A model generated the notes under the pieces. It was not told where the DNA came from and did not search any database. It worked only from the letters and a program-made list of their open reading frames with translations. This document shows positions 6,939-49,133 of a stretch of DNA of 64,000 nucleotides, piece by piece (positions within the stretch are counted from its first letter, which is position 1; each line of letters starts with the position of its first letter). The stretch is taken from NCBI RefSeq assembly GCF_003019035.1, contig NZ_CP027447.1. One strand, written 5' to 3'. The position numbers were made by a program, and so were the translations under genes. The DNA comes from Escherichia coli (GTDB lineage: Bacteria > Pseudomonadota > Gammaproteobacteria > Enterobacterales > Enterobacteriaceae).

Positions 6939-7051
6939 GTAAGGTACTGGAAATGTTGACCACTTAATCGGGACTGGTGTTATTATTGCCCGCTTATGTC
7001 GTCTGCATTGCACAGAGGACCCTTCAATGAACAGAGAAGAAATGCACTGTG

Positions 7052-8407
7052 ATGTTGTCAAAATTTAAGCGTAATAAACATCAACAACACCTTGCCCAAC
7101 TACCCAAGATTTCTCAATCAGTTGATGATGTCGATTTCTTTTACGCTCCCGCCGACTTCCGGGAGACGTTGCTGGAAAAAATAGCCAGCGCGAAGCAGCG
7201 CATTTGCATTGTTGCCCTGTATCTCGAACAGGATGACGGTGGCAAAGGCATTCTGAACGCGTTGTATGAGGCTAAAAGGCAGCGTCCGGAACTGGATGTG
7301 CGGGTGCTGGTCGACTGGCATCGTGCACAACGTGGACGCATTGGCGCTGCGGCATCTAACACTAACGCTGACTGGTACTGCCGCATGGCGCAGGAAAATC
7401 CGGGCGTAGATGTTCCGGTTTATGGCGTTCCAATCAATACCCGTGAAGCCCTTGGTGTTCTGCACTTTAAAGGCTTTATCATCGACGATAGCGTACTTTA
7501 TAGCGGTGCCAGCCTGAACGATGTTTACCTGCATCAGCACGATAAATATCGCTACGACCGTTATCATCTTATCCGTAACCGTAAGATGTCAGACATTATG
7601 TTTGAATGGGTTACACAGAATATTATGAATGGCCGCGGCGTTAATCGTCTGGATGATGTTAATCGGCCAAAAAGCCCGGAAATCAAGAACGATATTCGTC
7701 TGTTCCGCCAGGAGCTGCGTGATGCCGCTTATCATTTCCAGGGCGATGCCGACAACGATCAGCTTTCCGTAACGCCGTTGGTAGGTCTGGGGAAATCGAG
7801 TCTGTTGAACAAGACCATTTTCCATCTTATGCCTTGTGCCGAGCAGAAACTAACCATCTGCACACCATACTTCAACCTGCCAGCAATCCTTGTGCGCAAT
7901 ATCATCCAGTTACTGCGCGAAGGGAAAAAGGTCGAAATTATTGTTGGTGATAAAACCGCGAATGACTTCTACATTCCGGAAGATGAACCTTTCAAGATAA
8001 TTGGCGCATTGCCTTATCTCTATGAGATCAATCTGCGTCGTTTCCTGAGCCGTTTACAGTATTACGTCAACACTGACCAGTTAGTGGTTCGGTTATGGAA
8101 AGATGACGACAACACCTATCACCTGAAAGGGATGTGGGTTGATGATAAGTGGATGTTGATCACCGGTAATAACCTGAACCCGCGCGCCTGGCGTCTGGAT
8201 CTGGAAAACGCCATTTTGATCCACGATCCGCAACTGGAGCTTGCGCCACAGCGAGAGAAAGAACTGGAGCTGATCCGCGAGCATACCACCATCGTTAAGC
8301 ACTATCGCGATCTGCAAAGTATTGCCGATTATCCGGTGAAGGTTCGTAAACTCATCCGCCGTTTGCGCCGTATCCGCATCGACCGATTAATTAGCCGCAT
8401 CCTGTAA
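7052..8407 (+). CDS. pssA: Phosphatidylserine synthase (CDP-diacylglycerol--serine O-phosphatidyltransferase)
   Basis: ORF begins MMLSKFKRNKHQQHLAQLPK; trimmed to second Met (451 aa); PLD-like HKD motif context (HFKGFIIDD). Confidence 0.93.
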   Translation: MLSKFKRNKHQQHLAQLPKISQSVDDVDFFYAPADFRETLLEKIASAKQRICIVALYLEQDDGGKGILNALYEAKRQRPELDVRVLVDWHRAQRGRIGAAASNTNADWYCRMAQENPGVDVPVYGVPINTREALGVLHFKGFIIDDSVLYSGASLNDVYLHQHDKYRYDRYHLIRNRKMSDIMFEWVTQNIMNGRGVNRLDDVNRPKSPEIKNDIRLFRQELRDAAYHFQGDADNDQLSVTPLVGLGKSSLLNKTIFHLMPCAEQKLTICTPYFNLPAILVRNIIQLLREGKKVEIIVGDKTANDFYIPEDEPFKIIGALPYLYEINLRRFLSRLQYYVNTDQLVVRLWKDDDNTYHLKGMWVDDKWMLITGNNLNPRAWRLDLENAILIHDPQLELAPQREKELELIREHTTIVKHYRDLQSIADYPVKVRKLIRRLRRIRIDRLISRIL

Positions 8408-8411
8408 TCAC

Positions 8412-8440
8412 AACCCCGTCCTGTACGGGGTTTGTTTTGT
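8412..8440 (+). terminator. Rho-independent terminator after pssA
   Basis: ccccgtcctgtacgggg hairpin followed by tttgttttg. Confidence 0.6.
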
Positions 8441-8452
8441 GGAGGCCACGTT

Positions 8453-8776
8453 TTGCGTATTCTTTTTGTCTGTTCGCTATTGTTACTTTCTGGATGCAGC
8501 CATATGGCTAACGATAGCTGGAGCGGGCAGGATAAAGCTCAACACTTTATCGCCTCGGCAATGCTTTCCGCCGCCGGAAATGAATATTCACAGCATCAGG
8601 GGATGAGCCGGGATCGCAGTGCCATGTTTGGATTGATGTTCTCTGTCAGTCTGGGGGCGTCAAAAGAGCTTTGGGATAGCCGCCCTGAGGGGAGCGGCTG
8701 GAGCTGGAAGGATTTGGCCTGGGATGTCGCAGGTGCAAGCACCGGCTATACCGTCTGGCAACTGACCCGTCACTAA
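8453..8776 (+). CDS. yfiM: Lipoprotein YfiM
   Basis: Signal peptide with lipobox LLSGC; ggagg RBS 7 nt before a TTG at 8453 giving [15 protein letters not shown] (107 aa). The ORF track starts at an upstream TTG (8432), so start codon choice is uncertain. Confidence 0.75.
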
Positions 8777-10071
8777 AGACGCATCCCCTTCCCTTTGCGA
8801 TGTAGCATCAAAGAAACCAGAAACGCCACCACGGCCATCAAGGTCACATACCAGAAGAAGGCTGTTTCCATTCCTATTGATTTCAGCGACAACGCTACGT
8901 ACTCCGCCGAACCACCAAATATAGCATTAGCGACCGCATATGACAGACCAACGCCTAATGCGCGAACCTGTGCCGGGAACATCTCAGCCTTCAGTATTCC
9001 ACTGATTGATGTATAAAAACTCACTATCAGCAGGGCACACATCACCAGACCAAAAGCGGCATAAGGCGAGGAAACGTTTTGCAATGCTGAGAGAATAGGA
9101 ACGGTAAAAATGGCTGCCAGCGAACCGAAACATAACATTGAGGTACGGCGACCAATCTTATCCGACAGCGCGCCAATGAGTGGTTGAATAAGCATGAATA
9201 CAAACAATGCGGCAGTCATAATGCCACTCGCCACGTTGGCATGCATTCCCGCAGTATTTACCAGATACTTCTGCATATAAGTGGTGAAGGTATAGAAACA
9301 AAGGGAGCCCGCAGCGGTAAAACCGAGAACCATGATGAATGCACGGCGATTGCGCCATAATCCTTTCAGAGATCCAGCTTCTTTTAAAGCGCGCGTTTCT
9401 TGTTGTGAAGTTTCATCTAACTGACGACGTAACCACAACGCCACAACAGCTAACACAGCTCCTAACGCGAAAGGAATACGCCATCCCCACTCTCTGAGTG
9501 CAGCGTCTTCCATTGTGTGTTGTAAAACCACGACAACCAGTAGAGCTAGCAGTTGCCCGCCGATCAACGTCACATACTGAAATGATGCGTAAAAACCTTT
9601 GCGCCCTTCAACGGCAACTTCACTCATATAGGTGGCGCTGGTGCCATATTCTCCGCCAACGGATAATCCCTGGAATAAACGAGCAAGAAGCAATAATGCC
9701 GGAGCCCAGGTACCGATTGTTTCGTAGCCTGGCAAACAGGCGATAACCAGTGAGCCGAAACACATCATACACACCGATAATAGCATCGATTTTTTGCGAC
9801 CATGTTTATCGGCTATGCGGCCAAATAGCCAACCGCCTATTGGGCGCATCAGAAATCCCGCAGCAAAAACACCTGCTGTTTGTAGTAGTTGAGTCGTCGT
9901 GTTCCCGGAAGGGAAGAAGATGTGGGCAAAGTAGAGTGAACAGAACGAGTAGACATAGAAATCGAACCACTCGACCAGATTACCTGAAGAGGCCCCCACA
10001 ATCGCCCAAATGCGGCGACGAGTATCACTACTTGTCAGTTTGCTGTCTGCCGTTACAGTACTTTCAGCCAT
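8773..10071 (-). CDS. kgtP: Alpha-ketoglutarate:H+ symporter (MFS transporter)
   Basis: 432-aa [46 protein letters not shown]...; MFS sugar-transporter signature; 3' end overlaps yfiM by 4 bp convergently. Confidence 0.95.
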
Positions 10072-39759: not shown

Positions 39760-40123
39760 GGGGCTGATTCTGGATTCGACGGGATTTGCGAAACCCAAGG
39801 TGCATGCCGAGGGGCGGTTGGCCTCGTAAAAAGCCGCAAAAAATAGTCGCAAACGACGAAAACTACGCTTTAGCAGCTTAATAACCTGCTTAGAGCCCTC
39901 TCTCCCTAGCCTCCGCTCTTAGGACGGGGATCAAGAGAGGTCAAACCCAAAAGAGATCGCGTGGAAGCCCTGCCTGGGGTTGAAGCGTTAAAACTTAATC
40001 AGGCTAGTTTGTTAGTGGCGTGTCCGTCCGCAGCTGGCAAGCGAATGTAAAGACTGACTAAGCATGTAGTACCGAGGATGTAGGAATTTCGGACGCGGGT
40101 TCAACTCCCGCCAGCTCCACCAC
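39760..40123 (+). ncRNA. ssrA: tmRNA (transfer-messenger RNA, 10Sa RNA)
   Basis: GGGGCTGATTCTGGATTCGACGGG... through the tag reading frame gcaaacgacgaaaactacgctttagcagcttaa (ANDENYALAA) to the tRNA-like 3' end GGTTCAACTCCCGCCAGCTCCACCA. Confidence 0.96.
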
Positions 40124-40156
40124 TTTTTAGTAAAATGACGTCTACTAAAGTCTACT

Positions 40157-40191
40157 AAGGCCGCATACCACAAGGGTTTGCGGCCTTTTTC
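40157..40191 (+). terminator. Rho-independent terminator downstream of ssrA, inside the island left arm
   Basis: aaggccgcataccacaagggtttgcggcc hairpin followed by ttttt. Confidence 0.75.
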
Positions 40192-40289
40192 ATGTCCAGT
40201 GAAGTCTACTGAGAATTGCTAGAAACCACTCCTTATGGCACCCTCCTATTATCCCTCGTCGATGAGGGAGTAAAAACGAGGGAGCAAAA

Positions 40290-41522
40290 ATGCCAAAGGT
40301 AGCAACAAAACTCACTGACACAGAGATCAAAAAGGCCAAGCCCACAGAGAAAGAGTTCACGCTATGGGATGGAGATGGCTTGTTCCTGCGCATCAAACCA
40401 AGTGGCAAAAAAATCTGGCACCTCGGCTATACCGTTCCATTAACCAAGAAACGGGCCAAAATGAGTCTTGGGTTCTATCCCTACCTGACACTTGCTCAAG
40501 CAAGAGCGCTACGGGATGAATACCTCTCTTTGCTTGCACAGGGTATCGATCCCCAATCCCACAATGAGCAAAAAGCCCAAGCGCTTAAAGATGCCACTGA
40601 ACACACATTCCAGACTGTAGCGAAAAAATGGCTTGATGAAAAAATTAAAACATCAGGCATATCGCAAGATCATGCTAAGGATATCTGGCGTAGCCTTGAA
40701 CGGAACATCTTTCCTACTTTAGGGGATGTTCCCATTAAAGAGATCCGCCCTAAAATGTTAAAACAACACCTTGACCCCATAGAACAAAGGGGCGTACTCG
40801 AAACCTTGCGACGTATAATTTCCCGACTTAATGAAATTTTCCGCTATGCCGCGACAGAAGAACTCATTGAGTTCAACCCCGCTGACAACCTTATCCAACG
40901 TTTTAGTAAACCCAAAAAGCAAAATATGCCTGCGTTGCCGCCAGATGAACTACCCCGTTTCATGACAGCATTATCAAACGCATCTATACGCTTAGAAACA
41001 CGTCTACTAATTGAATGGCAACTTCTTACTTGGGTTCGTCCCGGTGAAGCTGTACGCGCTCGCTGGACTGACATAGACGAAGAAAGCAAGTATTGGAACA
41101 TTCCATCCGATTTCATGAAGATGAAACGTCCTCATAAGGTTCCATTGAGCAAAGAAGCTATACGTATTCTTGAATCCATGAAACCAATCAGCGGTCATCG
41201 TGAGTGGGTTTTCCCCAGCATAAAAAATCCTTTAACACATATGCACGAGCAAACTGCCAACGCCGCATTAATCCGAATGGGCTTAGGTGGAGAACTCGTA
41301 GCACATGGCATGCGTTCTATTGCAAGAACAGCAGCAGAAGAAGCAGGAAAATTTAGGACAGAAGTTCTTGAAGCGGCTCTCGCCCACTCAAAAAAAGATG
41401 AAATCATTGCTGCTTATAACCGTACAGAATATTTAGTCGAGCGTGTCGAGTTAATGCAATGGTGGAGTGATTATCTCCAAATACAAAAATATAAGTCTTT
41501 AACAACTCTGATCGCCAGCTAA
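40290..41522 (+). CDS. P4-type (IntA/SlpA-like) tyrosine site-specific integrase
   Basis: 410 aa; N-terminal arm-binding region (KLTDTEIKKAKP...LWDGDGLFLRIKPSGKKIW) and C-terminal catalytic region with R...HxxR...Y context (VAHGMRSIARTAA...LAHS...AYNRTEY); located directly after ssrA. Confidence 0.92.
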   Translation: MPKVATKLTDTEIKKAKPTEKEFTLWDGDGLFLRIKPSGKKIWHLGYTVPLTKKRAKMSLGFYPYLTLAQARALRDEYLSLLAQGIDPQSHNEQKAQALKDATEHTFQTVAKKWLDEKIKTSGISQDHAKDIWRSLERNIFPTLGDVPIKEIRPKMLKQHLDPIEQRGVLETLRRIISRLNEIFRYAATEELIEFNPADNLIQRFSKPKKQNMPALPPDELPRFMTALSNASIRLETRLLIEWQLLTWVRPGEAVRARWTDIDEESKYWNIPSDFMKMKRPHKVPLSKEAIRILESMKPISGHREWVFPSIKNPLTHMHEQTANAALIRMGLGGELVAHGMRSIARTAAEEAGKFRTEVLEAALAHSKKDEIIAAYNRTEYLVERVELMQWWSDYLQIQKYKSLTTLIAS

Positions 41523-41679
41523 TCCTACAATCAACCCAATATCAGAAGCTGGCTTTAGTAGGGATACTTCCATTTTTCTGATATTGTATTACCATGTAGC
41601 TGAAAGTCAGATACCAAGTAGAAAAACACATTTTTATGTATGCTTTATCGAATAAAACATTAACCAAATAGGGGGACTA

Positions 41680-42399
41680 ATGGAAGATTTAGTTTGTAGT
41701 TGGTCACCAAAGCTGATCGTTGATCTTATAAAAAGTATCGCTTGGCCAGTAGTCGTCCTTCTCATCGGCTTCAGTTTTCGAACTCGAATTTTTGAAGTGG
41801 CACGTTCATTTTTTTCTAAAAACACAGTTTCAGAAATATCAGCTACAGTATCAGGTGTATCGGCAAAATTTGTGACAGCAAAGCAAACAACTGAAGTATT
41901 AGAAAGTGCTAGTACCAATGCAGCGAATTTACCAAAGAGTATGAGTATTGAGGCTATAAGAGCGCGACATGAACAGCATAAAACAGAATTCAGCGAAGAG
42001 TTATATCAATCAATAATTAAACATGCTTCCTCTTTAGATATTAATAATGATGAAAAAGTCAAAATTCTGGCACGTGAATTGTCTATTTATCAAGCTATAA
42101 TACGATATATTGACATTAATAAGATATTATTTCGCTCACAATACAATTTATTTTGTTCTATAAATAGTAATGGTGGTCAAATAAATAAAGAAGACGCCAA
42201 TCTTTTTTTTGAGGCGACCAAGAACAACAATAAAGAAGCATTCTCCGATTGGGATTGGATTAAATATATTGCCTATCCTGTTAGTAATAGCCTTATCTAT
42301 GAAGATAATAATTTTTATAAACTTACAGAGTTGGGAAGATCGTATATAGCTTTTATGTCAAAAAATCCACAACTAATCGACGAACTTGCAAAATTATAG
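41680..42399 (+). CDS. Hypothetical membrane-anchored protein (N-terminal TM helix), island cargo
   Basis: 239-aa ORF with aggggga RBS; hydrophobic segment IAWPVVVLLIGFSF; AT-rich codon usage; no recognisable family. Confidence 0.6.
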   Translation: MEDLVCSWSPKLIVDLIKSIAWPVVVLLIGFSFRTRIFEVARSFFSKNTVSEISATVSGVSAKFVTAKQTTEVLESASTNAANLPKSMSIEAIRARHEQHKTEFSEELYQSIIKHASSLDINNDEKVKILARELSIYQAIIRYIDINKILFRSQYNLFCSINSNGGQINKEDANLFFEATKNNNKEAFSDWDWIKYIAYPVSNSLIYEDNNFYKLTELGRSYIAFMSKNPQLIDELAKL

Positions 42400-42629
42400 T
42401 AGGGAATAATATTAAACCCTACTCAATGACTGTTTCAGATCTTGGTTCTGTATCCCATAAATGATCAGGTAAAGTCTAAGCGAATAGCGTTTAACAGGTG
42501 GGATGACTCACTACGTGAACCACCCACCTATAAAAAGGGTTTTTCTTCTGGTGAGTTGTCAATAAAAATGAAGGTTTCCACCTTTCATGCGGACCCTCCT
42601 TAATTTTTTTTGACAAGTTGAGATCGAGA

Positions 42630-43082
42630 CTATTTATCATTACGTTTTTTCATAAAATATTTATAACGTTCATCAGCTTCTTTTTGAAACTTTTCAGCGT
42701 CAAACGTATCAGTTTCTATTTTTATTTTTTGTTTTACCGCTTCATCTAATCTTTTATTTTCTTTCAATCTTTCTTTTTCTACTAATATAAGTTTATAGTA
42801 TTTTAGCTTAATATTAAAACTTGCTTTTGCTAACTCCTTAGCGTCAAAACCTATATTGTATTTTTTAAGAAGTTTCAATATATAATCTATAGTCATTTTT
42901 TTCACTTCCTTTTTTATTTTTTCTTCATGCGCATCTTTTTTTATACTCCCACTTTTTAACCATTGCTTAAATTTATAGCCATTATAATGCTGCCATTGAT
43001 ATATTTCAGCGGCATACATCACCGACAACATACAAACAATAAAAAATACAACCATAAAAACCACACATATTAAATAATACAT
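42630..43082 (-). CDS. Hypothetical membrane-anchored Lys/Glu-rich protein, gene 6
   Basis: 150 aa; N-terminal TM LICVVFMVVFFIVCMLSVMYAA then a charged helical region. Confidence 0.55.
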   Translation of the reverse strand: MYYLICVVFMVVFFIVCMLSVMYAAEIYQWQHYNGYKFKQWLKSGSIKKDAHEEKIKKEVKKMTIDYILKLLKKYNIGFDAKELAKASFNIKLKYYKLILVEKERLKENKRLDEAVKQKIKIETDTFDAEKFQKEADERYKYFMKKRNDK

Positions 43083-43083
43083 A

Positions 43084-43320
43084 TCAGCCCCCGCCTTTCC
43101 TTCTATATTGTTCTTTTATTAATGCTACGTGATATTTTTTTGCGTTGCTTATACTTACATCAGCAGAGTTTCTAGCAGAAGCAAAAGCACTTGAAACAAC
43201 AGAAGCAATAATGGCAACTAAGAAAGCAGCAACAAAAAAACCCATCACTGGCCCCATAAAACTAGCCCCACCGTCATCTATTGCTGGTTTTGCTTTTGCT
43301 AATAATGATAATAGGCTCAT
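43084..43320 (-). CDS. Hypothetical small membrane protein (single TM), gene 5
   Basis: 78 aa; hydrophobic core GPVMGFFVAAFLVAIIASVVSSAF followed by a basic tail. Confidence 0.55.
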   Translation of the reverse strand: MSLLSLLAKAKPAIDDGGASFMGPVMGFFVAAFLVAIIASVVSSAFASARNSADVSISNAKKYHVALIKEQYRRKGGG

Positions 43321-43730
43321 ATATTTCTCTCTTCTTCAATGTTTTTAATCGCTGTTTCTATTCTTTGTTTTACAAAGTCTCTAAACACATAACCTATTAT
43401 TCGCGCGTCTTCACATATATCTAACTCATCTTTTTTATGAAAATATAAATCAGCGCTTAAAAGCTCTTCGCTTTGAATATTTAACATTTTACTAGCAAGT
43501 GATATTCTAATAATATTTCGCACTTCTAAATCCAAGCTTGCTCTATCATGCTTATTCAAAAGCTGGAGCGGATGAAAATCTTTTTTTCTTTTCATTTCTT
43601 GCATATCATTATCAAAATCTATCATTAAAAAATGTAAGCAAGTAAAAGACGTATCATAGAAGTTTAAGCGGTTCATCATATCCGCCGTTCCCTCTTTTCG
43701 AGGGTTCGGGTTAGGTCTTAATTTATTCAT
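43317..43730 (-). CDS. Hypothetical protein, gene 4
   Basis: 137 aa; overlaps gene 3 by 8 bp and gene 5 by 4 bp. Confidence 0.55.
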   Translation of the reverse strand: MNKLRPNPNPRKEGTADMMNRLNFYDTSFTCLHFLMIDFDNDMQEMKRKKDFHPLQLLNKHDRASLDLEVRNIIRISLASKMLNIQSEELLSADLYFHKKDELDICEDARIIGYVFRDFVKQRIETAIKNIEEERNI

Positions 43731-44064
43731 CTGCTTTACTCCTTTTCTTGTTGTTTTTTAGCTTCCATTCATTCAATCTTTTATCGCCTTCAACTTTTAA
43801 GAACTCACGCTGATCGTGTATTCTTTTCAGTATTAGATTATTAGTTAACGCTCCTACTAACAAAGAAATATCATTCGCAAAATCTAATGTCTCGATGTTA
43901 TTTTCTCTAACTATTCTTATTAGTTCAGCGCCGGCTTTTATTTTACGTGTCGTATCTTTTTTCCTTTCTTCTGCCTTCATTTCTTGCTCCATTCTATTCA
44001 ATAAGTTTGCTCTTTGCTCAATTTCTTTTTTTAATTTATTATATTTTTCTATATTAAACGCCAT
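43723..44064 (-). CDS. Hypothetical basic coiled-coil protein, gene 3
   Basis: 113 aa, Lys/Glu-rich heptad-like N-terminus (EKYNKLKKEIEQRANLLNRMEQEMKAEERKK). Confidence 0.55.
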   Translation of the reverse strand: MAFNIEKYNKLKKEIEQRANLLNRMEQEMKAEERKKDTTRKIKAGAELIRIVRENNIETLDFANDISLLVGALTNNLILKRIHDQREFLKVEGDKRLNEWKLKNNKKRSKADE

Positions 44065-44383
44065 TTTCTGAACCTCTCTTTTCTTTTATCGTAATAAAAA
44101 AGGCAATCAACCCACTGATCAATAAAATTGGTAAAGTTAAAATAAACCCTACCAATAACACTAATGAAAATCCGAGCACGCCGGACATCTCATATAGATT
44201 TCCGAACAATGTGCTTTCGTTTTTATACTCAACCATATTCTGTAAAACAGACCTTTTTTCAATATCTTTTTCTTTTAAAGAATCTTCTCTATATTCATAA
44301 TCTTCACAACTCAAAGAAATTTCCACAGTGTTATCATTCAAATACTCATTATCATAATAGTCGTAATCATTATTCCCAATCAT
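44054..44383 (-). CDS. Hypothetical membrane protein (acidic Tyr/Asp-rich N-terminus, C-terminal TM segment), gene 2
   Basis: 109 aa; hydrophobic stretch GVLGFSLVLLVGFILTLPILLISGLIAFFITI; translationally coupled to neighbours. Confidence 0.55.
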   Translation of the reverse strand: MIGNNDYDYYDNEYLNDNTVEISLSCEDYEYREDSLKEKDIEKRSVLQNMVEYKNESTLFGNLYEMSGVLGFSLVLLVGFILTLPILLISGLIAFFITIKEKRGSENGV

Positions 44384-44565
44384 TCTAGATCTCCTTCTAA
44401 CGTGTCATAAACAACAGTAAAATCATTCTCATGAGAAAGAAGATTGTAAGTTATAAATAAGCTTGTCCTATAAACAATATCTGTATTTTCATCCTGTAGT
44501 TTTTGAATAATCAACTTAACAAGATCAGACGCTGCCACTTCAATTTTTTTATCAATATCATTCAT
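44380..44565 (-). CDS. Hypothetical small acidic protein, gene 1 of the six-gene island operon
   Basis: 61 aa; agagg-type RBS; stop overlaps the next gene start by 4 bp. Confidence 0.5.
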   Translation of the reverse strand: MNDIDKKIEVAASDLVKLIIQKLQDENTDIVYRTSLFITYNLLSHENDFTVVYDTLEGDLE

Positions 44566-44737
44566 GTTCCACCTCTTTTATTTTTTATGATTTCTGTTAT
44601 ATATATTAAGTAATATAATTATTTATTTAAGTAAAGCGCGATATATATTTTTTTGTTTTTAGAACGCATTTTTCAGATAAAAGGCTCACGTGCGGCGGCT
44701 ATTTTAGTTTTGCTAAAAACTACAATAGCGCACTTAT

Positions 44738-44761
44738 ACATTCTTCGAATGTGTGCGCCCC
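44738..44761 (+). promoter_or_regulatory. Candidate origin of transfer (oriT) with MobQ-type nick motif
   Basis: Inverted repeat acattc-ttc-gaatgt immediately followed by GTGCGCCCC, resembling the recalled RSF1010 oriT nick region (IR + TAAGTGCG/CCCT); lies about 115 bp upstream of the relaxase gene. Confidence 0.55.
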
Positions 44762-44874
44762 ATAAATGGGGGTTTACTAACGCAGAAAAATAAAAAGTAA
44801 TATTCGCTTTATGCTCAATATTACTTAATCGCTTTTCAAAAAAGCAAATATATTTTTATTATTTTAAAAAGTAT

Positions 44875-46203
44875 GTGTTTCAATATCAGGAGATAAAAAC
44901 AATGGCAATATTTCATATGAGCGCTCAAACAATAACACGCAGCAAGGGGTATAGTAGCGTAGCTGCGGCAGCTTATCGCCACGGCGAAAAGTTAACGGAC
45001 GAACACACAGGAGAGATCCACGACTACAGCAAAAAGAAAGGTGTTTCAGACAGTGTTATATTAATACCTGAAAGCGCAGACCGTAATTTTTTAAAGCCTG
45101 CGTATTTATGGAACATGATAGAAAAAAGCGAAAAAAGAAAAGATGCGCAGTTAGCTCGCGAGTTTAATATTGCGCTTCCTGTCGAAATGACAGATGAACA
45201 AAAAAAGGCGTTAGCAATAGATTTTTGCCAAGAGCATTTTGTAAAAAATGGAATGATTGCTGATATAGCTTTTCACAAGCTCGATAGCGACAACCCACAT
45301 TTTCATGTAATGCTAACCACCCGCAGCCTTACGCCGGACGGTTCAGAGTTCGGACATAAAGTCAGGGAATGGAACAACAAAGAGCAGCTCGAAGGCTGGC
45401 GCAAGAGCTGGGCTGACACAGCGAACGAGCACATGCAAAAGGCTGGCATCGATGCGCATATAGATCACAGATCACTGAAAGAACAAAAAGCAGAGCTTGA
45501 CGCTATCCTCCCCCCTCTCAGAACGATTGAGCAAGAGGCGCAGGCTATCAGCTTAGACAGACCGCCGACTATCCATAGAGGCCATAGCCGCAATCCAGAG
45601 CGACAAGCACGCTTTGACGTGCTCCAAGAAGTGAAAGTATCACAAGAGGAAAAAGCACTTAACCACATTGAACAGAAACAACTTAAGCCCTCGCCGCTGG
45701 CTCCAGCTTCCTCCCCTGCCGCATCTTTGCAAGATGCTACACAAGGAGGCAATGAAAACAACCCGCAAAATAGACTCGGCGAAGTTGGCGAATATCTTCA
45801 ATCTAAACTCAATAAAGAAGATAAAGCAGATCTTAATACTGATAATGAAATCAAAGTTCACACTACTAAAAATAATAGGGAAAGCAGTTCAGCAGCAGCT
45901 ATAGGTTCAACATCAAATATTAATTTAACCGATGAGAAAACAGATAAGAATCTACACTTAACAGAAGCACAAAAAGAAGAGTTAGAGGATTTAGAAAATA
46001 AAGAAGCAGCAGCGAAGAAAAAAGCTTATCTGATGAGCGGAGCTGCCGTTCCTGAACTTTCTCAAGATTACAAAACACTGTCAAAAAGTGAGTTTAAAAA
46101 TAAGCTTCATACAGCTAAACAATCAATATCATTAACTGAAAAGAGATTTAATGAAGAATGTGAAGCATATGATAACAGAAGAAAACGACCAATACCGCGC
46201 TAA
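44875..46203 (+). CDS. MobA/MobL-family (MobQ-type) conjugative relaxase, relaxase domain only
   Basis: N-terminus MAIFHMSAQTITRSKGYSSVAAAAYRHGEKL aligns with RSF1010 MobA MAIYHLTAKTGSRSGG...ADYIQREGKY (catalytic Tyr region); HFHVMLTTR matches the His motif HCHLMISER; C-terminal half is low-complexity Lys/Glu/Ser-rich with no primase domain. Confidence 0.85.
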   Translation: MFQYQEIKTMAIFHMSAQTITRSKGYSSVAAAAYRHGEKLTDEHTGEIHDYSKKKGVSDSVILIPESADRNFLKPAYLWNMIEKSEKRKDAQLAREFNIALPVEMTDEQKKALAIDFCQEHFVKNGMIADIAFHKLDSDNPHFHVMLTTRSLTPDGSEFGHKVREWNNKEQLEGWRKSWADTANEHMQKAGIDAHIDHRSLKEQKAELDAILPPLRTIEQEAQAISLDRPPTIHRGHSRNPERQARFDVLQEVKVSQEEKALNHIEQKQLKPSPLAPASSPAASLQDATQGGNENNPQNRLGEVGEYLQSKLNKEDKADLNTDNEIKVHTTKNNRESSSAAAIGSTSNINLTDEKTDKNLHLTEAQKEELEDLENKEAAAKKKAYLMSGAAVPELSQDYKTLSKSEFKNKLHTAKQSISLTEKRFNEECEAYDNRRKRPIPR

Positions 46204-46563
46204 GTATTTTGCTCATTTTTTATCCCCAATGAATGACTTAGCGTTATATTTACTTTAACTAATTGATACTATTGATTTATTTTCACCTCACGTCGTATCG
46301 TTTATATCGATCAAAATCGACAAAGTGATAGTTAACACCTATCACAACCAATTCATCGATCGATTAAAACAATTAATACACCGATCGATAAACGAGATTT
46401 AATCGTTAAAAACTATCAATATTAAATAATTGATCTGTTATAACGATCATTTTGCTTGAGAGTAGCCCTCCTCATGGTATGCTCGGAGCGTGGAAGACCG
46501 GGCTACTCACCTTGATATCTTCTTGATTAAGCAAAACTATCGCTCTATGAGGAATGAAATTTT

Positions 46564-47058
46564 ATGAAAACCGAAAACATTATTTTTCTTGTTTGGGCAG
46601 TGATTTTTATCCTGATTCTCTGCCAACTTTTTTATTTTGGCCCTAAAAAAAGAAGATACCTCAATACTTATATAGAGGTATTAGATGGTGATGTCCTCTC
46701 ATATGAATGTCAAAATACCGGCGTAGTTATTGATACTAAAAAAAACACAGTACGTATTTTCAATACATATAAGGACAGCACTTTCAAATACGACAACATC
46801 AGGGAAATAAATTATACGCTATCCGAAGCCGGAAAAATTTATAGCACAAGTAATAATCTAAACTCTATGATAAAGTCCGCTGGAGCTAACAGTAATGAAC
46901 AAATGTTAGCTAATCAGCGTTCCGGTATTTTTATACTGACAGATGATATAAAAAATCCTTCATGGAAAATCAATCTACCAATGAAAAACAAAACATCATC
47001 TACCAATCAGGAGATCTGCGATCGATGGCTTCTCATTTTTAAAAAATACGTTTTATAA
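46564..47058 (+). CDS. Hypothetical membrane-anchored protein
   Basis: 164 aa; gagga RBS; N-terminal TM IIFLVWAVIFILILCQLFYF. Confidence 0.55.
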   Translation: MKTENIIFLVWAVIFILILCQLFYFGPKKRRYLNTYIEVLDGDVLSYECQNTGVVIDTKKNTVRIFNTYKDSTFKYDNIREINYTLSEAGKIYSTSNNLNSMIKSAGANSNEQMLANQRSGIFILTDDIKNPSWKINLPMKNKTSSTNQEICDRWLLIFKKYVL

Positions 47059-47090
47059 CTTTGTTTTTTATTTTTATCTTTGGAGTTGAC

Positions 47091-47468
47091 ATGAAAAAAT
47101 TGATTGCGGCAGCATTTATTATTCTCCCTTTAGCAAGTTGTACTGTTTATGGAAACAAATCCATTAAAGACGAAACGCAGCAAAATATAGCCTCTAAAAT
47201 TATAAAAGGTAAAACTACTCAAAAAGATATCCTTCAACTTTATGGAGAACCTCAGACTAAAGAAACTAACGATGGTAAAGAAATGTGGGGATATTCCGTT
47301 ATGTCCGGTGAATCTCAGATTTCAAATTACATACCGGGATTAGCGTTATTGAAGAATAGCAGCACAGCGCACATGAAAGAACTTGAGATCTTGTTTAAAG
47401 GTGATGTAGTTGAACGCTATACCTTTAGACAAACGGCAAGCAAAGCTTCTCGCGGGTTGTTAGATTAA
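47091..47468 (+). CDS. Hypothetical lipoprotein (possible SmpA/OmlA-like fold)
   Basis: Start at MKKLIAAAFIILPLASC (lipobox LASC) preceded by ggag RBS; about 125 aa; weak pattern similarity to BamE-type lipoproteins (Q..L..YG.P.....W.Y). Confidence 0.55.
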   Translation: MKKLIAAAFIILPLASCTVYGNKSIKDETQQNIASKIIKGKTTQKDILQLYGEPQTKETNDGKEMWGYSVMSGESQISNYIPGLALLKNSSTAHMKELEILFKGDVVERYTFRQTASKASRGLLD

Positions 47469-47730
47469 TTTAAATTAAATACCATTTTATCTTTAAAAAG
47501 AAGTTGGAATAGTCCGACTTCTTTTCTATTTTATCAATAACATGCATTATTTATATTAGTGCCTTATGAAATGGCACCTTACTTTTTATATTTCCCTATC
47601 TGGGGGTTTAACCTTTGTTTTTTATTAAAAAAAATTTTGTACTAGTAGTACTAATTAATTAATTTAAAAATTTTTGGTTTTAAGGTTTTGGGGTTTGTGT
47701 TTTAGCGGGGCGGCTTTCAGCCGTAGTAGT

Positions 47731-47760
47731 TTTCCTCCGAAGGAGGAAATAGTTTTTCTT
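47731..47760. terminator. Perfect palindrome followed by T-run (terminator-like) in the island non-coding region
   Basis: tttcctccgaaggaggaaa followed by tagtttttcttt. Confidence 0.5.
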
Positions 47761-48087
47761 TAAGCATTCCCCCCCTACCCCCCACGCCAAAAAGGCTAAA
47801 AAAGAGAGATAGGAGATGCTCATTGCGTCTTGAAAATATTCAGAACGTTTCCATTCTGATACTTCCCCCACGACCCACGCAAACACAAATCATGAAACTT
47901 TCAAACAACTCTCGTTTTACTAAAGAGTCTATGCTACTGTTTGTAAATTTTTTAGATTGTGCGATTCAGGTTGGCAGCTACGCATATCCCGGTTAACCGC
48001 TGCCGCAATATTCTAAGTTTCACCAAACACTCGATGTCCTTCGTACTTAGACCTTGATACAACAAGGGTAATATTATATTGCTTTTG

Positions 48088-48223
48088 TAGATTAAATGTT
48101 TCTGGAAATGGTATTGACATTTTATCTATGTCAAAGTCGGCGAAATTTGTTTAATCATGCAGATTAGAGGCTTCTGGAAGTGGTATTTAATATTAGTTAA
48201 AAGTCGACGAAGCATTTCTAATC
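48088..48223. repeat. Tandem imperfect direct repeat of about 66-70 bp (two copies)
   Basis: Copy 1 gtagattaaatgtttctggaaatggtattgacatt...gtcaaagtcggcgaaatttgtttaatc and copy 2 gcagattagaggcttctggaagtggtatttaatatt...aaaagtcgacgaagcatttctaatc align by eye with several mismatches and a short gap. Confidence 0.6.
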
Positions 48224-48469
48224 TTTTGTATCTTTATATTATATAAATCTATATATAACACCAGTCAATAGATGAAATCAAAAATATTTTAAAAACATGA
48301 CTAGATGAAAAACAAAAAAAGACCAGATTAAACCCCAGTCTCTTTTTTACTTAATATCAGTTATGTTTTTCATATATAGTTCTAAAACGCTCTGTACGCG
48401 ATTTTGAGACGTTTTACACTGGAAGCGGCGTAATCATATAAATAATAAAATAGAATACTGTAATGATTT

Positions 48470-48673
48470 TTATGCCGCTTGATTACGCGAATAAAAAATC
48501 TTATCATCAATCCATTCGTCAACTTCACTTTCAACAAATGCGATAGTTCTTTCACCAGTCTTGATCGGAGAAGGGAAATCACCCCGGCTAATCAGCCGAT
48601 AGATCCACGCTTTACAAAAACCAGTCTTGTTTAACACTTCGGGTATGCGGATAAGTCTTTTTCTTTCGTTCAT
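48470..48673 (-). CDS. AlpA-family (HTH_17, excisionase-like) transcriptional regulator
   Basis: MNERKRLIRIPEVLNKTGFCKAWIYRLISRGDFPSPIKTGERTIAFVESEVDEWI matches the AlpA/prophage CP4-57 regulator pattern; start chosen at the Met preceded by a gagga RBS (ORF track starts 4 codons upstream). Confidence 0.8.
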   Translation of the reverse strand: MNERKRLIRIPEVLNKTGFCKAWIYRLISRGDFPSPIKTGERTIAFVESEVDEWIDDKIFYSRNQAA

Positions 48674-49133
48674 ATATTTCCTCATAGTTGTTTTGATGAG
48701 GCTATTATTCGAATATCGCTTATGACGATCAACAACTTTTTTAGCAAAAAGTGCTTTTTTAGTTGACTATTTTAAATTAACAGTCATTTAATCACCTTTG
48801 GAAGTTGAACTCATGAGTTCAACTCCTCACCGCTAGTCATGACATTCAAAATGTGCTTATTTTTTAGCCACAATACTTTTTTTATCCCTTTATTGCACCT
48901 CAATGTAAAATACAAATAATTAATATATTTAATAATCAAATGATTAAAGAGTCGATTACAGGGACGCCAGCCAATCATGATTGGACGGTGTAAGGACAAC
49001 ACTAATAAAAACAGGAAGTTAGCAGTCTCAGCAGGACACCGACCAGACGGTGAGGAGACATAAAAGGATACGCAAAGGAGCCGCGGCCCCTGGTGATATG
49101 AAAGCCCACAGATGTGGGCTTTTTCGTTGATGG

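What the first reader, a model, noticed from the sequence alone, without database searches (positions are those of the whole stretch)
40100..48830. Compact AT-rich integrative mobilizable element at the tmRNA (ssrA) site
Directly after ssrA the sequence switches from typical E. coli core composition to a visibly AT-rich block of about 8.7 kb. It is bounded by a P4-type integrase on the left and an inward-facing AlpA-family regulator on the right, with a partial copy (GTTCAACTCC) of the ssrA 3' core near 48817-48826. From memory, K-12 MG1655 carries the roughly 22-kb CP4-57 prophage (yfjH, alpA, rnlAB, cbtA/cbeA and others) between intA and ypjA; none of those cargo genes is present here. Instead there is a MobQ relaxase with oriT plus about nine uncharacterised small genes, giving an int + alpA + relaxase/oriT architecture with no conjugation machinery of its own.
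Basis: partly seen in the sequence, partly recalled or inferred. Interest (0 to 1): 0.8.

Follow-up and report, generated by a model that had tools for sequence, protein, structure and literature searches.

The report
Compact mobilizable island at ssrA
An 8.9-kb AT-rich island inserted at the end of the tmRNA gene is a small plasmid's transfer module joined to an integrase/AlpA module, with one swappable slot that in relatives holds anti-phage genes; the kind is known, but it also carries an undescribed conserved structured RNA candidate.

Summary
Window 40123-48973 (8,851 bp, 35.6% GC against 50.7% in the left flank) is an integrative mobilizable element at the 3' end of ssrA. It has a P4-type integrase, an inward-facing AlpA, a MobQ relaxase with a hairpin-plus-GTGCG|CCCC oriT, no replicase, no coupling protein or secretion genes found, and no CP4-57 cargo.

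One correction. The real right junction is CGCCAGCCA|ATCATG at 48965-48973, a known degenerate ssrA scar.

New points:
- The six small genes plus mobQ (42534-46107) are 82-87% identical to 5.4-6.2-kb Rep+MobQ plasmids, so the element is that backbone minus rep.
- One slot after int holds orf239 here, and DRT9, a HEPN protein or a type II restriction-modification pair in relatives.
- The family is at ssrA in E. coli and Salmonella.
- A non-coding block (about 47640-48080) is the most conserved part, shows compensatory base-pair changes, is absent from Rfam, and recurs in other compact IMEs and ROD21-like islands.

Verdict: a new member of a known kind, of moderate interest.

The parts
39760..40122 (+). 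ssrA (tmRNA gene), the integration target. Its last 14 nt, CGCCAGCTCCACCA (40109-40122), form the attL core.
   Evidence: ARAGORN; Rfam RF00023 at 295.8 bits; alignment with the empty site L004.
40123..40289 (+). Element left arm. It holds three GTCTACTRA repeats (40140-40212) and a GC-rich hairpin followed by a T-run (about 40158-40191) that would serve as the ssrA terminator.
   Evidence: Sequence. The repeat occurs 4 times against 0.41 expected. The same arm is conserved in the Salmonella copy. The binding-site and terminator roles are inferred.
40290..41522 (+). P4-family tyrosine integrase, 410 aa.
   Evidence: NF007246 at 462.6 bits against a cutoff of 434. 49% aa identity to K-12 IntA. 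The exact sequence occurs on 244 contigs.
41523..42629 (+). Single variable cargo slot. Here it holds orf239 (41680-42399), a protein with a membrane helix followed by a winged-helix domain and no known function.
42630..44565 (-). Operon of six small genes (150, 78, 137, 113, 109 and 61 aa), divergent from mobQ. It belongs to the plasmid-derived backbone. orf113 is weakly TraD-like.
   Evidence: ORFs. 82-87% nt identity to 5.4-6.2-kb plasmids. orf113 against the EARL TraD gives E 3e-4, and UniRef labels it 'TraD'. No family hits otherwise.
44728..44761 (+). Candidate oriT: a compound hairpin (GCGCAC...ACATTC-TTC-GAATGT-GTGCGC) that ends in a MOBQ-type nic motif, GTGCG|CCCC.
   Evidence: Sequence. 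The 23-nt core is conserved in L001, L006 and plasmid L003. The ssDNA fold has z -3.3. The nic assignment is by analogy with RSF1010/R1162 (GTGCG|CCCT), from established knowledge.
44902..46203 (+). MobQ (MobA/MobL) relaxase, 433 aa. Tyr25 and the HxDxxNPHxH motif are present.
   Evidence: NF041496 at 254.5 bits against a cutoff of 200. PDB 4ht4 NES at 8.6e-33 and 2ns6 MobA at 3.3e-12. The motifs were read from the translation.
46564..47058 (+). DUF4755 protein, 164 aa, with an N-terminal membrane helix.
   Evidence: RefSeq annotation of relatives. PF15947 on the Salmonella copies.
47091..47468 (+). Lipoprotein, 125 aa (lipobox LASC), followed by an intrinsic terminator at 47496-47525.
   Evidence: phrog_3135 at 1.1e-28. 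UniRef name 'SmpA/OmlA domain-containing'. Terminator scan.
47640..48080 (-). Conserved structured non-coding block, a candidate RNA read in the alpA direction. It includes the invariant motifs GTACTAGTAGTAC, CGTTTTACTAA and TGCGATTCAGG (written on the + strand).
   Evidence: 96-99% identical among copies whose alpA is only about 72% identical. 96.6% identical between E. coli and Salmonella. 64 pairs, 27 of them compensatory; 94.6% of cells paired against 85.0% in shuffles (0 of 500) and 40-53% when slid. G.U against A.C is 169:23 on the minus strand. No Rfam match. The ends are approximate.
48314..48347 (-). Intrinsic terminator just downstream of alpA.
   Evidence: Terminator scan: 14-bp stem followed by a T-run.
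48470..48685 (-). AlpA-family regulator / recombination directionality factor. The annotated start in relatives gives 67 aa.
   Evidence: PF05930 at 6.5e-18. PHROG excisionase families. 71% aa identity to the AlpA of the tRNA-Phe IME.
48686..48964 (-). alpA promoter/operator region and right arm of the element.
   Evidence: Promoter scan. Invariance across copies. The palindrome is found only in ssrA-family copies. Function is inferred.
48965..48973 (+). attR core remnant CGCCAGCCA, the 'CGCCAGC-----CA' state of the ssrA 3' end. It is followed directly by the chromosomal flank ATCATGATTGG.

Best explanation
This is an integrative mobilizable element (IME) that cannot transfer on its own and hitch-hikes on a co-resident conjugative plasmid or ICE.

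Shown:
- It sits at the 3' end of ssrA, between an intact ssrA end (attL) and a degenerate copy of the last 14 nt (attR).
- It encodes a P4-family integrase at one end and an AlpA-type directionality factor at the other.
- It encodes a MOBQ relaxase with its catalytic motifs, next to a conserved hairpin/nic-type oriT.
- No replicase, coupling protein or secretion genes were found.
- Its relaxase-plus-six-gene module is shared at 82-87% nt identity with small Rep-bearing plasmids.
- Closely related copies occupy ssrA in E. coli and Salmonella.

Inferred life cycle:
1. AlpA raises int expression and/or directs excision, as shown for CP4-57.
2. Int recombines attL with attR to give a non-replicating circle.
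3. MobQ, perhaps helped by the TraD-like orf113 and its neighbours, nicks oriT at GTGCG|CCCC and pilots the + strand through a helper's secretion system.
4. After complementary-strand synthesis, Int inserts the circle into the recipient's ssrA and re-supplies the gene's terminal nucleotides and terminator.

The element supplies the functional ssrA end, and attR here is CGCCAGC-----CA. Excision from this chromosome should therefore leave a truncated, inactive tmRNA. That cost would favour retention.

The single slot after int is a defence-cargo position. orf239, a membrane-anchored winged-helix protein, is the allele carried here and is a candidate anti-phage gene by position only.
For: - Boundaries and att.
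- Integrase. AlpA. MobQ. oriT.
- No Rep: tblastn with the plasmid Rep gives nothing below E 0.067.
- No transfer-machinery families in any ORF.
- Plasmid kinship.
- Spread across genera at the same site.
- Occupied, empty and otherwise-occupied ssrA sites in E. coli.
- AlpA-induced excision, and inactivation of tmRNA by the attR-derived end, are experimentally shown for CP4-57 (PMC10107115).
- AlpA and int are required for excision of other IMEs (PIME preprint).
- Slot alleles: DRT9, HEPN, type II R-M.
- Homologues of orf239 sit in ICE cargo, next to a TIR gene plus IS200, and in IS-flanked patches.
Against: - No excision, circular form or transfer has been observed. All life-cycle steps are by homology.
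- The attR core here shares only CGCCAGC + CA with attL, which may reduce or abolish excision of this particular copy.
- No helper is identified, and no conjugative plasmid shares the oriT at the blastn level.
- MOB-suite typed at least one related plasmid as non-mobilizable, so this relaxase subclade is not experimentally anchored.
- The defence role of orf239 rests only on its position. It has no PADLOC or PHROG match, and its winged-helix fold is equally compatible with a regulator.
- The six small genes have no assigned function.
Confidence: 0.8

Rival explanations
1. This particular copy is a fixed, no-longer-mobile remnant: a domesticated islet kept because it supplies the ssrA 3' end and a cargo gene. 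The family it derives from would still be mobile.
For: attR is reduced to CGCCAGCCA. The near-identical SCU-301 copy carries several frameshifts. Two other copies are truncated by IS1. By analogy with CP4-57, excision would inactivate tmRNA.
Against: All 12 ORFs are intact in the window. The exact Int, MobQ and other proteins occur on 139-244 contigs. The same attR state is present at other islands and belongs to the chromosomal side of the junction. CP4-57 excises even with an imperfect attR.
Confidence: 0.15
2. The element is a phage satellite (P4-like, PICI or minimalist PICMI-type) that is packaged by a helper phage, and the relaxase is incidental.
For: The P4-type integrase, AlpA and an ssrA location are all typical of P4-like satellites and PICIs. 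The lipoprotein matches a PHROG. P4-like satellites carry defence hotspots.
Against: There is no primase/helicase, psu/delta/sid, capsid-size or packaging-redirection gene. Apart from AlpA and the lipoprotein, no ORF matches any PHROG. The core module is 82-87% identical to mobilizable plasmids and carries a complete relaxase plus oriT.
Confidence: 0.04
3. The element is an integrated plasmid that replicates after excision. The conserved non-coding block (47640-48080) would then be an origin: either an oriV fired by a host or helper protein, or a single-strand origin used after transfer, rather than an RNA gene.
For: The element derives from a plasmid backbone. PIMEs excise and then replicate from an oriV. 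The block is orientation-fixed, highly conserved and independent of relaxase family, as a single-strand origin would be.
Against: No Rep gene is present. The block has no relatives in 72,556 plasmids. It lacks obvious iterons. The strand that folds best is the minus strand, whereas the nic motif puts the transferred strand on the plus strand. However, both strand calls are inferences.
Confidence: 0.1

Closest known systems
EARL (Enterobacteriaceae-associated ROD21-like) genomic islands (PMC6035254)
   Same: A P4-like integrase and an AlpA-type RDF sit at opposite ends. There is a MobA/MobL (MOBQ) relaxase, whose N-terminal domain is 46% identical to ours. There is a small TraD-like protein and no type IV secretion system. 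They are AT-rich and carry defence-type cargo (TIR, type III R-M). They share the conserved structured non-coding block.
   Different: EARL islands integrate at Asn-tRNA genes, are 20-60 kb, carry type IV pilin/PilV genes and often H-NS paralogues, and have large accessory regions. This element is 8.9 kb, integrates at ssrA, has no pilin or H-NS genes, and has a single cargo slot.
CP4-57 cryptic prophage of E. coli K-12 (P4-like, at ssrA)
   Same: It uses the same att site and the same att core (CGCCAGCTCCACCA). It has an IntA-type integrase (49% aa) and an AlpA-family regulator (32% aa). Its attR is degenerate, so that excision damages ssrA.
   Different: None of the 22 kb of CP4-57 cargo is present. 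In CP4-57 alpA lies next to intA rather than at the far end. CP4-57 has no relaxase or oriT.
Small 5.4-6.2-kb Rep + MobQ plasmids of Enterobacteriaceae (e.g. pKFu022_4, Kp23-unnamed3)
   Same: mobQ, the oriT and four to six of the small genes are collinear at 82-87% nt identity. Some proteins are closer to the plasmid versions (89-92%) than to other integrated copies.
   Different: The plasmids carry a 563-aa Rep. They lack int, alpA, DUF4755, the lipoprotein, the cargo slot and the conserved non-coding block.
PIMEs (Pseudomonadota integrative mobilizable elements; bioRxiv 10.64898/2026.01.12.698999)
   Same: They combine int and alpA, depend on a helper for mobilization, and act as reservoirs of immune systems.
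   Different: PIMEs are defined by the co-occurrence of a replicase with trbJ and trbL, are about 20 kb, and replicate after excision. None of those genes is present here.
Compact tRNA-Phe IME of E. coli A1_181 and relatives in Klebsiella indica, Brenneria and Enterobacter
   Same: The layout is the same: int ... relaxase ... conserved non-coding block ... inward-facing alpA ... attR. AlpA is 71% identical and the block 80% identical, and alpA operator sequences are shared.
   Different: The integrase is only 32% identical and targets tRNA-Phe. The relaxase belongs to a different family ('relaxase/mobilization nuclease' with a separate Mob protein). The ssrA-type palindrome is absent.

Membership tests
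Integrative mobilizable element (IME), sensu Guedon et al. 2017 | Site-specific integration module with flanking att repeats | tested here: met
   P4-type integrase. attL CGCCAGCTCCACCA and attR CGCCAGCCA bracket the insert relative to an empty site.
Integrative mobilizable element (IME), sensu Guedon et al. 2017 | Own relaxase and/or oriT | tested here: met
   MobQ matches NF041496 above its cutoff and PDB relaxases. A conserved hairpin plus nic motif is present.
Integrative mobilizable element (IME), sensu Guedon et al. 2017 | No complete conjugation apparatus (T4SS, coupling protein) | tested here: met
   No ORF of 55 aa or more matches any T4SS or T4CP family in the libraries it was run against. 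All twelve went to at least two of NCBIfam, PHROGs, PADLOC and Pfam, but not every ORF to every library.
Integrative mobilizable element (IME), sensu Guedon et al. 2017 | Demonstrated excision and helper-dependent transfer | not testable with these tools
   Only indirect evidence is available: the same element occupies the same site in different genera and in unrelated E. coli hosts.
MOBQ relaxase family | N-terminal catalytic Tyr and histidine-triad motif; homology to MobA/NES | tested here: met
   Tyr25 and HKLDSDNPHFH were read from the translation. 4ht4 at 8.6e-33 and 2ns6 at 3.3e-12.
EARL / ROD21-like islands | Integration at an Asn-tRNA gene with the family's direct repeat | tested here: not met
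   It is integrated at ssrA.
EARL / ROD21-like islands | Type IV pilin and pilus-related genes | tested here: not met
   tblastn with the 042-island pilin finds nothing in the compact IMEs, and no pilin ORF exists in the window element.
EARL / ROD21-like islands | MobA/MobL relaxase + TraD homologue; integrase and RDF at opposite ends | tested here: met
   The MobQ N-terminal domain is 46% identical. orf113 resembles TraD weakly, E 3e-4. int is at the left end and alpA at the right.
PIME | Co-occurrence of int, alpA, a replicase, trbJ and trbL | tested here: not met
   No replicase. No trbJ or trbL family hit. Definition.
P4-like satellite / PICI | Primase-helicase replication module and helper-capsid exploitation genes | tested here: not met
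   Only AlpA and the lipoprotein hit PHROGs. No ORF is large enough to be a primase other than int and mobQ.
DRT9 / known defence systems (for the cargo carried here) | Match of orf239 to a PADLOC defence model | tested here: not met
   No PADLOC hit at E <= 0.01. The only hit is a 26-residue WH_III-A match at E 0.011. The DRT9 allele is in PigCaeca_1 and XJ5.2, not in the window.

The most novel reading that the evidence does not exclude
Two undescribed things may ride on this ordinary-looking IME.

(1) The roughly 400-nt block at 47640-48080 may be a new class of structured RNA that belongs to the integrase/AlpA-type mobilizable islands of Enterobacterales. It lies downstream of alpA in compact IMEs with unrelated relaxases, and in the 5' leader of the traD-pilin operon of ROD21-like islands. 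It may couple excision or transfer-gene expression to a signal such as the presence of a helper.

(2) orf239, a membrane-anchored winged-helix protein, may be a new single-gene anti-phage defence. It occupies a slot whose other alleles are DRT9, a HEPN protein and a type II R-M system.
Probability: 0.3. Interest if true: 0.7.

Novelty: new member of a known kind. Interest (0 to 1): 0.45.

Why it matters
It gives a clean, minimal example of how a small mobilizable plasmid becomes a chromosomal hitch-hiker: rep is swapped for an int/alpA module, and gene exchange with the plasmid pool continues.

It defines a one-gene cargo slot that can be mined for new defence genes. orf239 and the HEPN protein are untested.

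Its degenerate attR predicts that losing the element would switch off trans-translation, as shown for CP4-57, which links island stability to ribosome rescue.

The conserved structured non-coding block is shared with ROD21-like pathogenicity islands and other compact IMEs. It is a concrete, testable candidate for a regulatory RNA of island excision or transfer, and that area currently has no known RNA component.

Tried and rejected
It is inside the element, within a conserved palindrome. Similarity to the E. coli core resumes only at about 48955-48971.
- PIME membership is rejected.
- P4 satellite or PICI is rejected.
- A Rep remnant was searched for and not found.
- orf239 gave nothing significant in PADLOC, PHROGs, NCBIfam, Pfam or PDB sequence searches. 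Fold searches gave only generic winged-helix hits and uncharacterised look-alikes.
- The six small genes gave no family assignment. Pfam on orf113 gave only DUF3847 at 6e-4.
- The non-coding block has no Rfam match and no relative in PLSDB plasmids. That argues against homology with F-type Frpo/ssi elements.
- I considered the block as the oriT of the ROD21-like islands. This is rejected because those islands have their own hairpin+GTGCG site about 150 bp upstream of mobQ.
- I tried to place a promoter for the block by eye and by scan. The result was inconclusive: a strong terminator after alpA at 48314-48347 suggests a separate start or read-through.
- I did not build a covariance model, because the block exceeds the size that can be calibrated.
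- The mirror-image structure could not be scored on the plus-strand alignment, because the two MAFFT alignments are not exact mirrors. I used the G.U against A.C count instead. Counting only variable pairs in well-supported helices, the minus-strand preference is roughly 2.6:1. The strand call is therefore favoured, not proven.

Full report
**What is there.** ARAGORN and Rfam place ssrA at 39760-40122. From about 41500 to about 48950, GC drops to 0.29-0.37 from about 0.50 in the flanks. The defined element is 35.6% GC against 50.7% in the left flank.

The ORF map reads as follows:
- int, 40290-41522 (+)
- orf239, 41680-42399 (+)
- six small genes on the minus strand, 42630-44565
- mobQ, 44902-46203 (+)
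- a DUF4755 gene, 46564-47058 (+)
- a lipoprotein gene, 47091-47468 (+)
- about 1 kb without ORFs
- alpA, 48470-48685 (-)
- ypjA, from 49134 (-)

**Boundaries.** An E. coli genome with an empty site (L004) reads ...CGCCAGCTCCACCA|ATCATGATTGG. The window has ...CGCCAGCTCCACCA|CTTTTTAG at 40122/40123 and ...GGGACGCCAGCCA|ATCATGATTGG at 48973/48974. Across 5,419 genomes, similarity to the window's right flank begins at about 48954-48967.

It is half of a perfect 22-bp palindrome (48803-48824) about 140 bp inside the element. That palindrome is invariant in all ssrA-integrated copies and absent from a related tRNA-Phe element. It is more likely a protein-binding site in the right arm or alpA control region than an att core.

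**Identity of the parts.**
- Int matches the P4-type model NF007246 above its cutoff. It is 49% identical to CP4-57 IntA.
- AlpA matches PF05930 at 6.5e-18.
- MobQ matches NF041496 above its cutoff. It also matches the solved MOBQ relaxases NES (4ht4, 8.6e-33) and R1162 MobA (2ns6). Tyr25 and the HxDxxNPHxH motif are present.
- Between the divergent operons lies GCGCAC...ACATTC-TTC-GAATGT-GTGCG|CCCC. It folds as ssDNA with z -3.3, and its core is conserved in integrated and plasmid relatives. This is the hairpin-then-nic layout known for RSF1010/R1162 (established knowledge).
- No Rep is present, and no ORF matched a coupling protein, a T4SS component or a phage-satellite function.

**Origin.** Positions 42534-46107 (the six small genes, the oriT and most of mobQ) are 82-87% identical to 5.4-6.2-kb plasmids of E. 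coli, Klebsiella, Enterobacter and Salmonella. Those plasmids consist of just this module plus a 563-aa Rep. Some proteins are closer to the plasmid versions than to other integrated copies: orf113 is 89-90% against 78-80%, and orf78 is 90-93% against 78-79%. Exchange with the plasmid pool therefore appears to be ongoing. The element is that plasmid backbone with rep replaced by DUF4755, the lipoprotein, the non-coding block, alpA, att, int and the cargo slot.

**Distribution.** Only 4 of 5,426 complete E. coli genomes carry at least 80% of the element, and two more carry IS1-truncated copies. The exact Int, MobQ, DUF4755, lipoprotein and orf137/113 proteins occur on 139-244 contigs each. Their 90%-identity clusters include Salmonella, Citrobacter koseri, Klebsiella, Raoultella, Enterobacter and Pectobacterium. 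In Salmonella enterica the same backbone sits at ssrA next to fljAB-hin, in hundreds of assemblies.

**Cargo slot.** Similarity among copies breaks between the end of int and about 42455-42648. The slot holds:
- orf239 in the window, SCU-301 and 6EVA
- a full-length DRT9 reverse transcriptase in PigCaeca_1 and XJ5.2 (PADLOC E 1e-221)
- an Eco57I-type methylase plus a BsuBI/PstI-type endonuclease in Salmonella

orf239 belongs to a length-conserved family with no Pfam domain, found in Enterobacterales, Vibrio, Aeromonas and Alteromonas. Its homologues are always solitary and sit in ICE cargo, in IS-flanked patches, or next to a TIR gene. The model shows an N-terminal membrane helix, a disordered linker and a winged-helix domain. 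A defence role is plausible by position only.

**Mechanism.** The integration site, the modules and the lack of transfer machinery are shown. The remaining steps are inferred by homology:
1. AlpA-promoted, Int-catalysed excision. This is shown for CP4-57, and alpA and int are required for excision of PIMEs.
2. MobQ nicking at oriT.
3. Transfer through a helper's T4SS.
4. Re-integration at ssrA.

For CP4-57, the chromosome left after excision inherits the attR-derived 3' end, and that end inactivates tmRNA (PMC10107115). The same logic predicts a truncated tmRNA after excision here.

**A conserved structured non-coding block.** Between the lipoprotein gene and alpA, positions about 47640-48000 are 96-99% identical among copies whose adjacent alpA is only about 72% identical. 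They are 96.6% identical between E. coli and Salmonella, while int is 79%. Relatives at 73-80% identity exist in 172 of 5,426 E. coli genomes, always in unannotated DNA, and in none of 72,556 plasmids.

A scan of species-representative genomes added Klebsiella indica, Enterobacter, Citrobacter, Brenneria, Affinibrenneria, Yersinia rohdei, Pluralibacter, Tenebrionibacter and Rosenbergiella. Two fixed contexts emerge:
- In compact IMEs whose relaxases belong to different families, alpA lies 0.75-1.1 kb away and reads toward the block.
- In islands with a type III R-M system, PilV/pilin, TraD and MobA/MobL, the block lies between mobQ and the traD-pilin operon. These islands fit the EARL/ROD21-like family.

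A 16-sequence alignment of five clades gives, on the minus strand, 64 pairs of which 27 carry compensatory changes. Of all cells, 94.6% are paired, against 85.0% in shuffles (0 of 500) and 40-53% when partners are slid. G.U pairs outnumber A.C mismatches 169:23 on that strand. Restricted to variable pairs in well-supported helices, the preference is about 2.6:1.

There is no Rfam match. The ROD21-like islands have a separate hairpin+GTGCG site next to mobQ, so the block is not their relaxase's oriT. A strong terminator follows alpA, so the block may have its own start. I read it as a candidate structured RNA transcribed in the alpA direction. A single-strand origin is the main alternative. Its function is unknown.

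**Comparison and verdict.** The element fails the definitions of PIME, EARL (att site and pilin genes) and P4-like satellites. It is closest in design to EARL islands and to the compact tRNA-Phe IME of A1_181. IMEs with defence cargo at the E. coli tmRNA hotspot are already noted in general terms.

It is a new member of a known kind. Three features are worth follow-up: its plasmid ancestry, the one-gene defence slot with an uncharacterised allele, and the conserved RNA-like block.

Noticed in passing
window 47640-48080 (minus strand); also L019 8882-9405, L020 8955-9546, L056 10736-11082: A conserved structured non-coding block is shared by compact IMEs with unrelated relaxases and by ROD21-like (EARL) islands. 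It shows compensatory base-pair changes and is not in Rfam. It is the most conserved part of the element.
   Followed up: yes
L019 3619-10383 (E. coli A1_181, tRNA-Phe): A second family of compact IME, about 6.7 kb: int, a PF03432-type relaxase plus a Mob protein, the same non-coding block and a 71%-identical AlpA. Its attR is a clean copy of the tRNA-Phe 3' end. Relatives occur in Klebsiella indica, Brenneria and Enterobacter.
   Followed up: partly
window 48803-48824: A perfect 22-bp palindrome, AGTTGAACTCA/TGAGTTCAACT, is invariant in E. coli and Salmonella copies. One half mimics the ssrA T-loop (GTTCAACTCC). It may be an Int or AlpA binding site. It is absent from the tRNA-Phe IME.
   Followed up: partly
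window 40140-40212; L019 3700-3790 and 10200-10245; L056 1340-1410: GTCTACT(A/G)A-type repeats cluster next to attL in ssrA and tRNA-Phe elements whose integrases are only 32% identical but whose AlpA proteins are 71% identical. They may be AlpA/RDF sites.
   Followed up: partly
window 45250-45750 (inside mobQ): A 500-bp stretch of 51% GC sits within an element that is otherwise 30-36% GC. It covers the end of the relaxase domain and the start of the Pro/Ala/Ser-rich linker, which suggests a mosaic origin for mobQ.
   Followed up: no
L056 11977-12060 (Salmonella copy, right of attR): Immediately after attR the left-arm sequence is repeated (CTTTTTAGTTGTTTGAAGTA...AAGTCTACTAAGCCCGCA plus a terminator hairpin). 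It looks like the remnant of an earlier ssrA island in tandem.
   Followed up: no
L007 13041-13738 and L008 14474-15171 (E. coli 6EVA, XJ5.2): IS1 insertions truncate the element after the small-gene operon and are associated with deletion of mobQ through ypjA and beyond. These are independent decay routes for the island.
   Followed up: no
L001 (E. coli SCU-301), 5531-9869: The 99.6%-identical copy in SCU-301 has several broken ORFs (orf150, orf78, orf137, orf109, DUF4755), whereas the window copy is intact. The cause could be decay or homopolymer sequencing errors.
   Followed up: no
window 54500-56000 and 56849-56924: A second AT-rich stretch (GC 0.33-0.35) lies beyond ypjA, followed by a tRNA with a CAT anticodon on the minus strand. 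This is probably the pinH-ypjB-ileY region of K-12 and possibly another island boundary.
   Followed up: no
L009 (Klebsiella plasmid Kp23-unnamed3): PLSDB/MOB-suite types this Rep+MobQ plasmid as non-mobilizable although it has an annotated MobQ relaxase and the conserved oriT. This relaxase subclade seems to be missed by the typing scheme.
   Followed up: no
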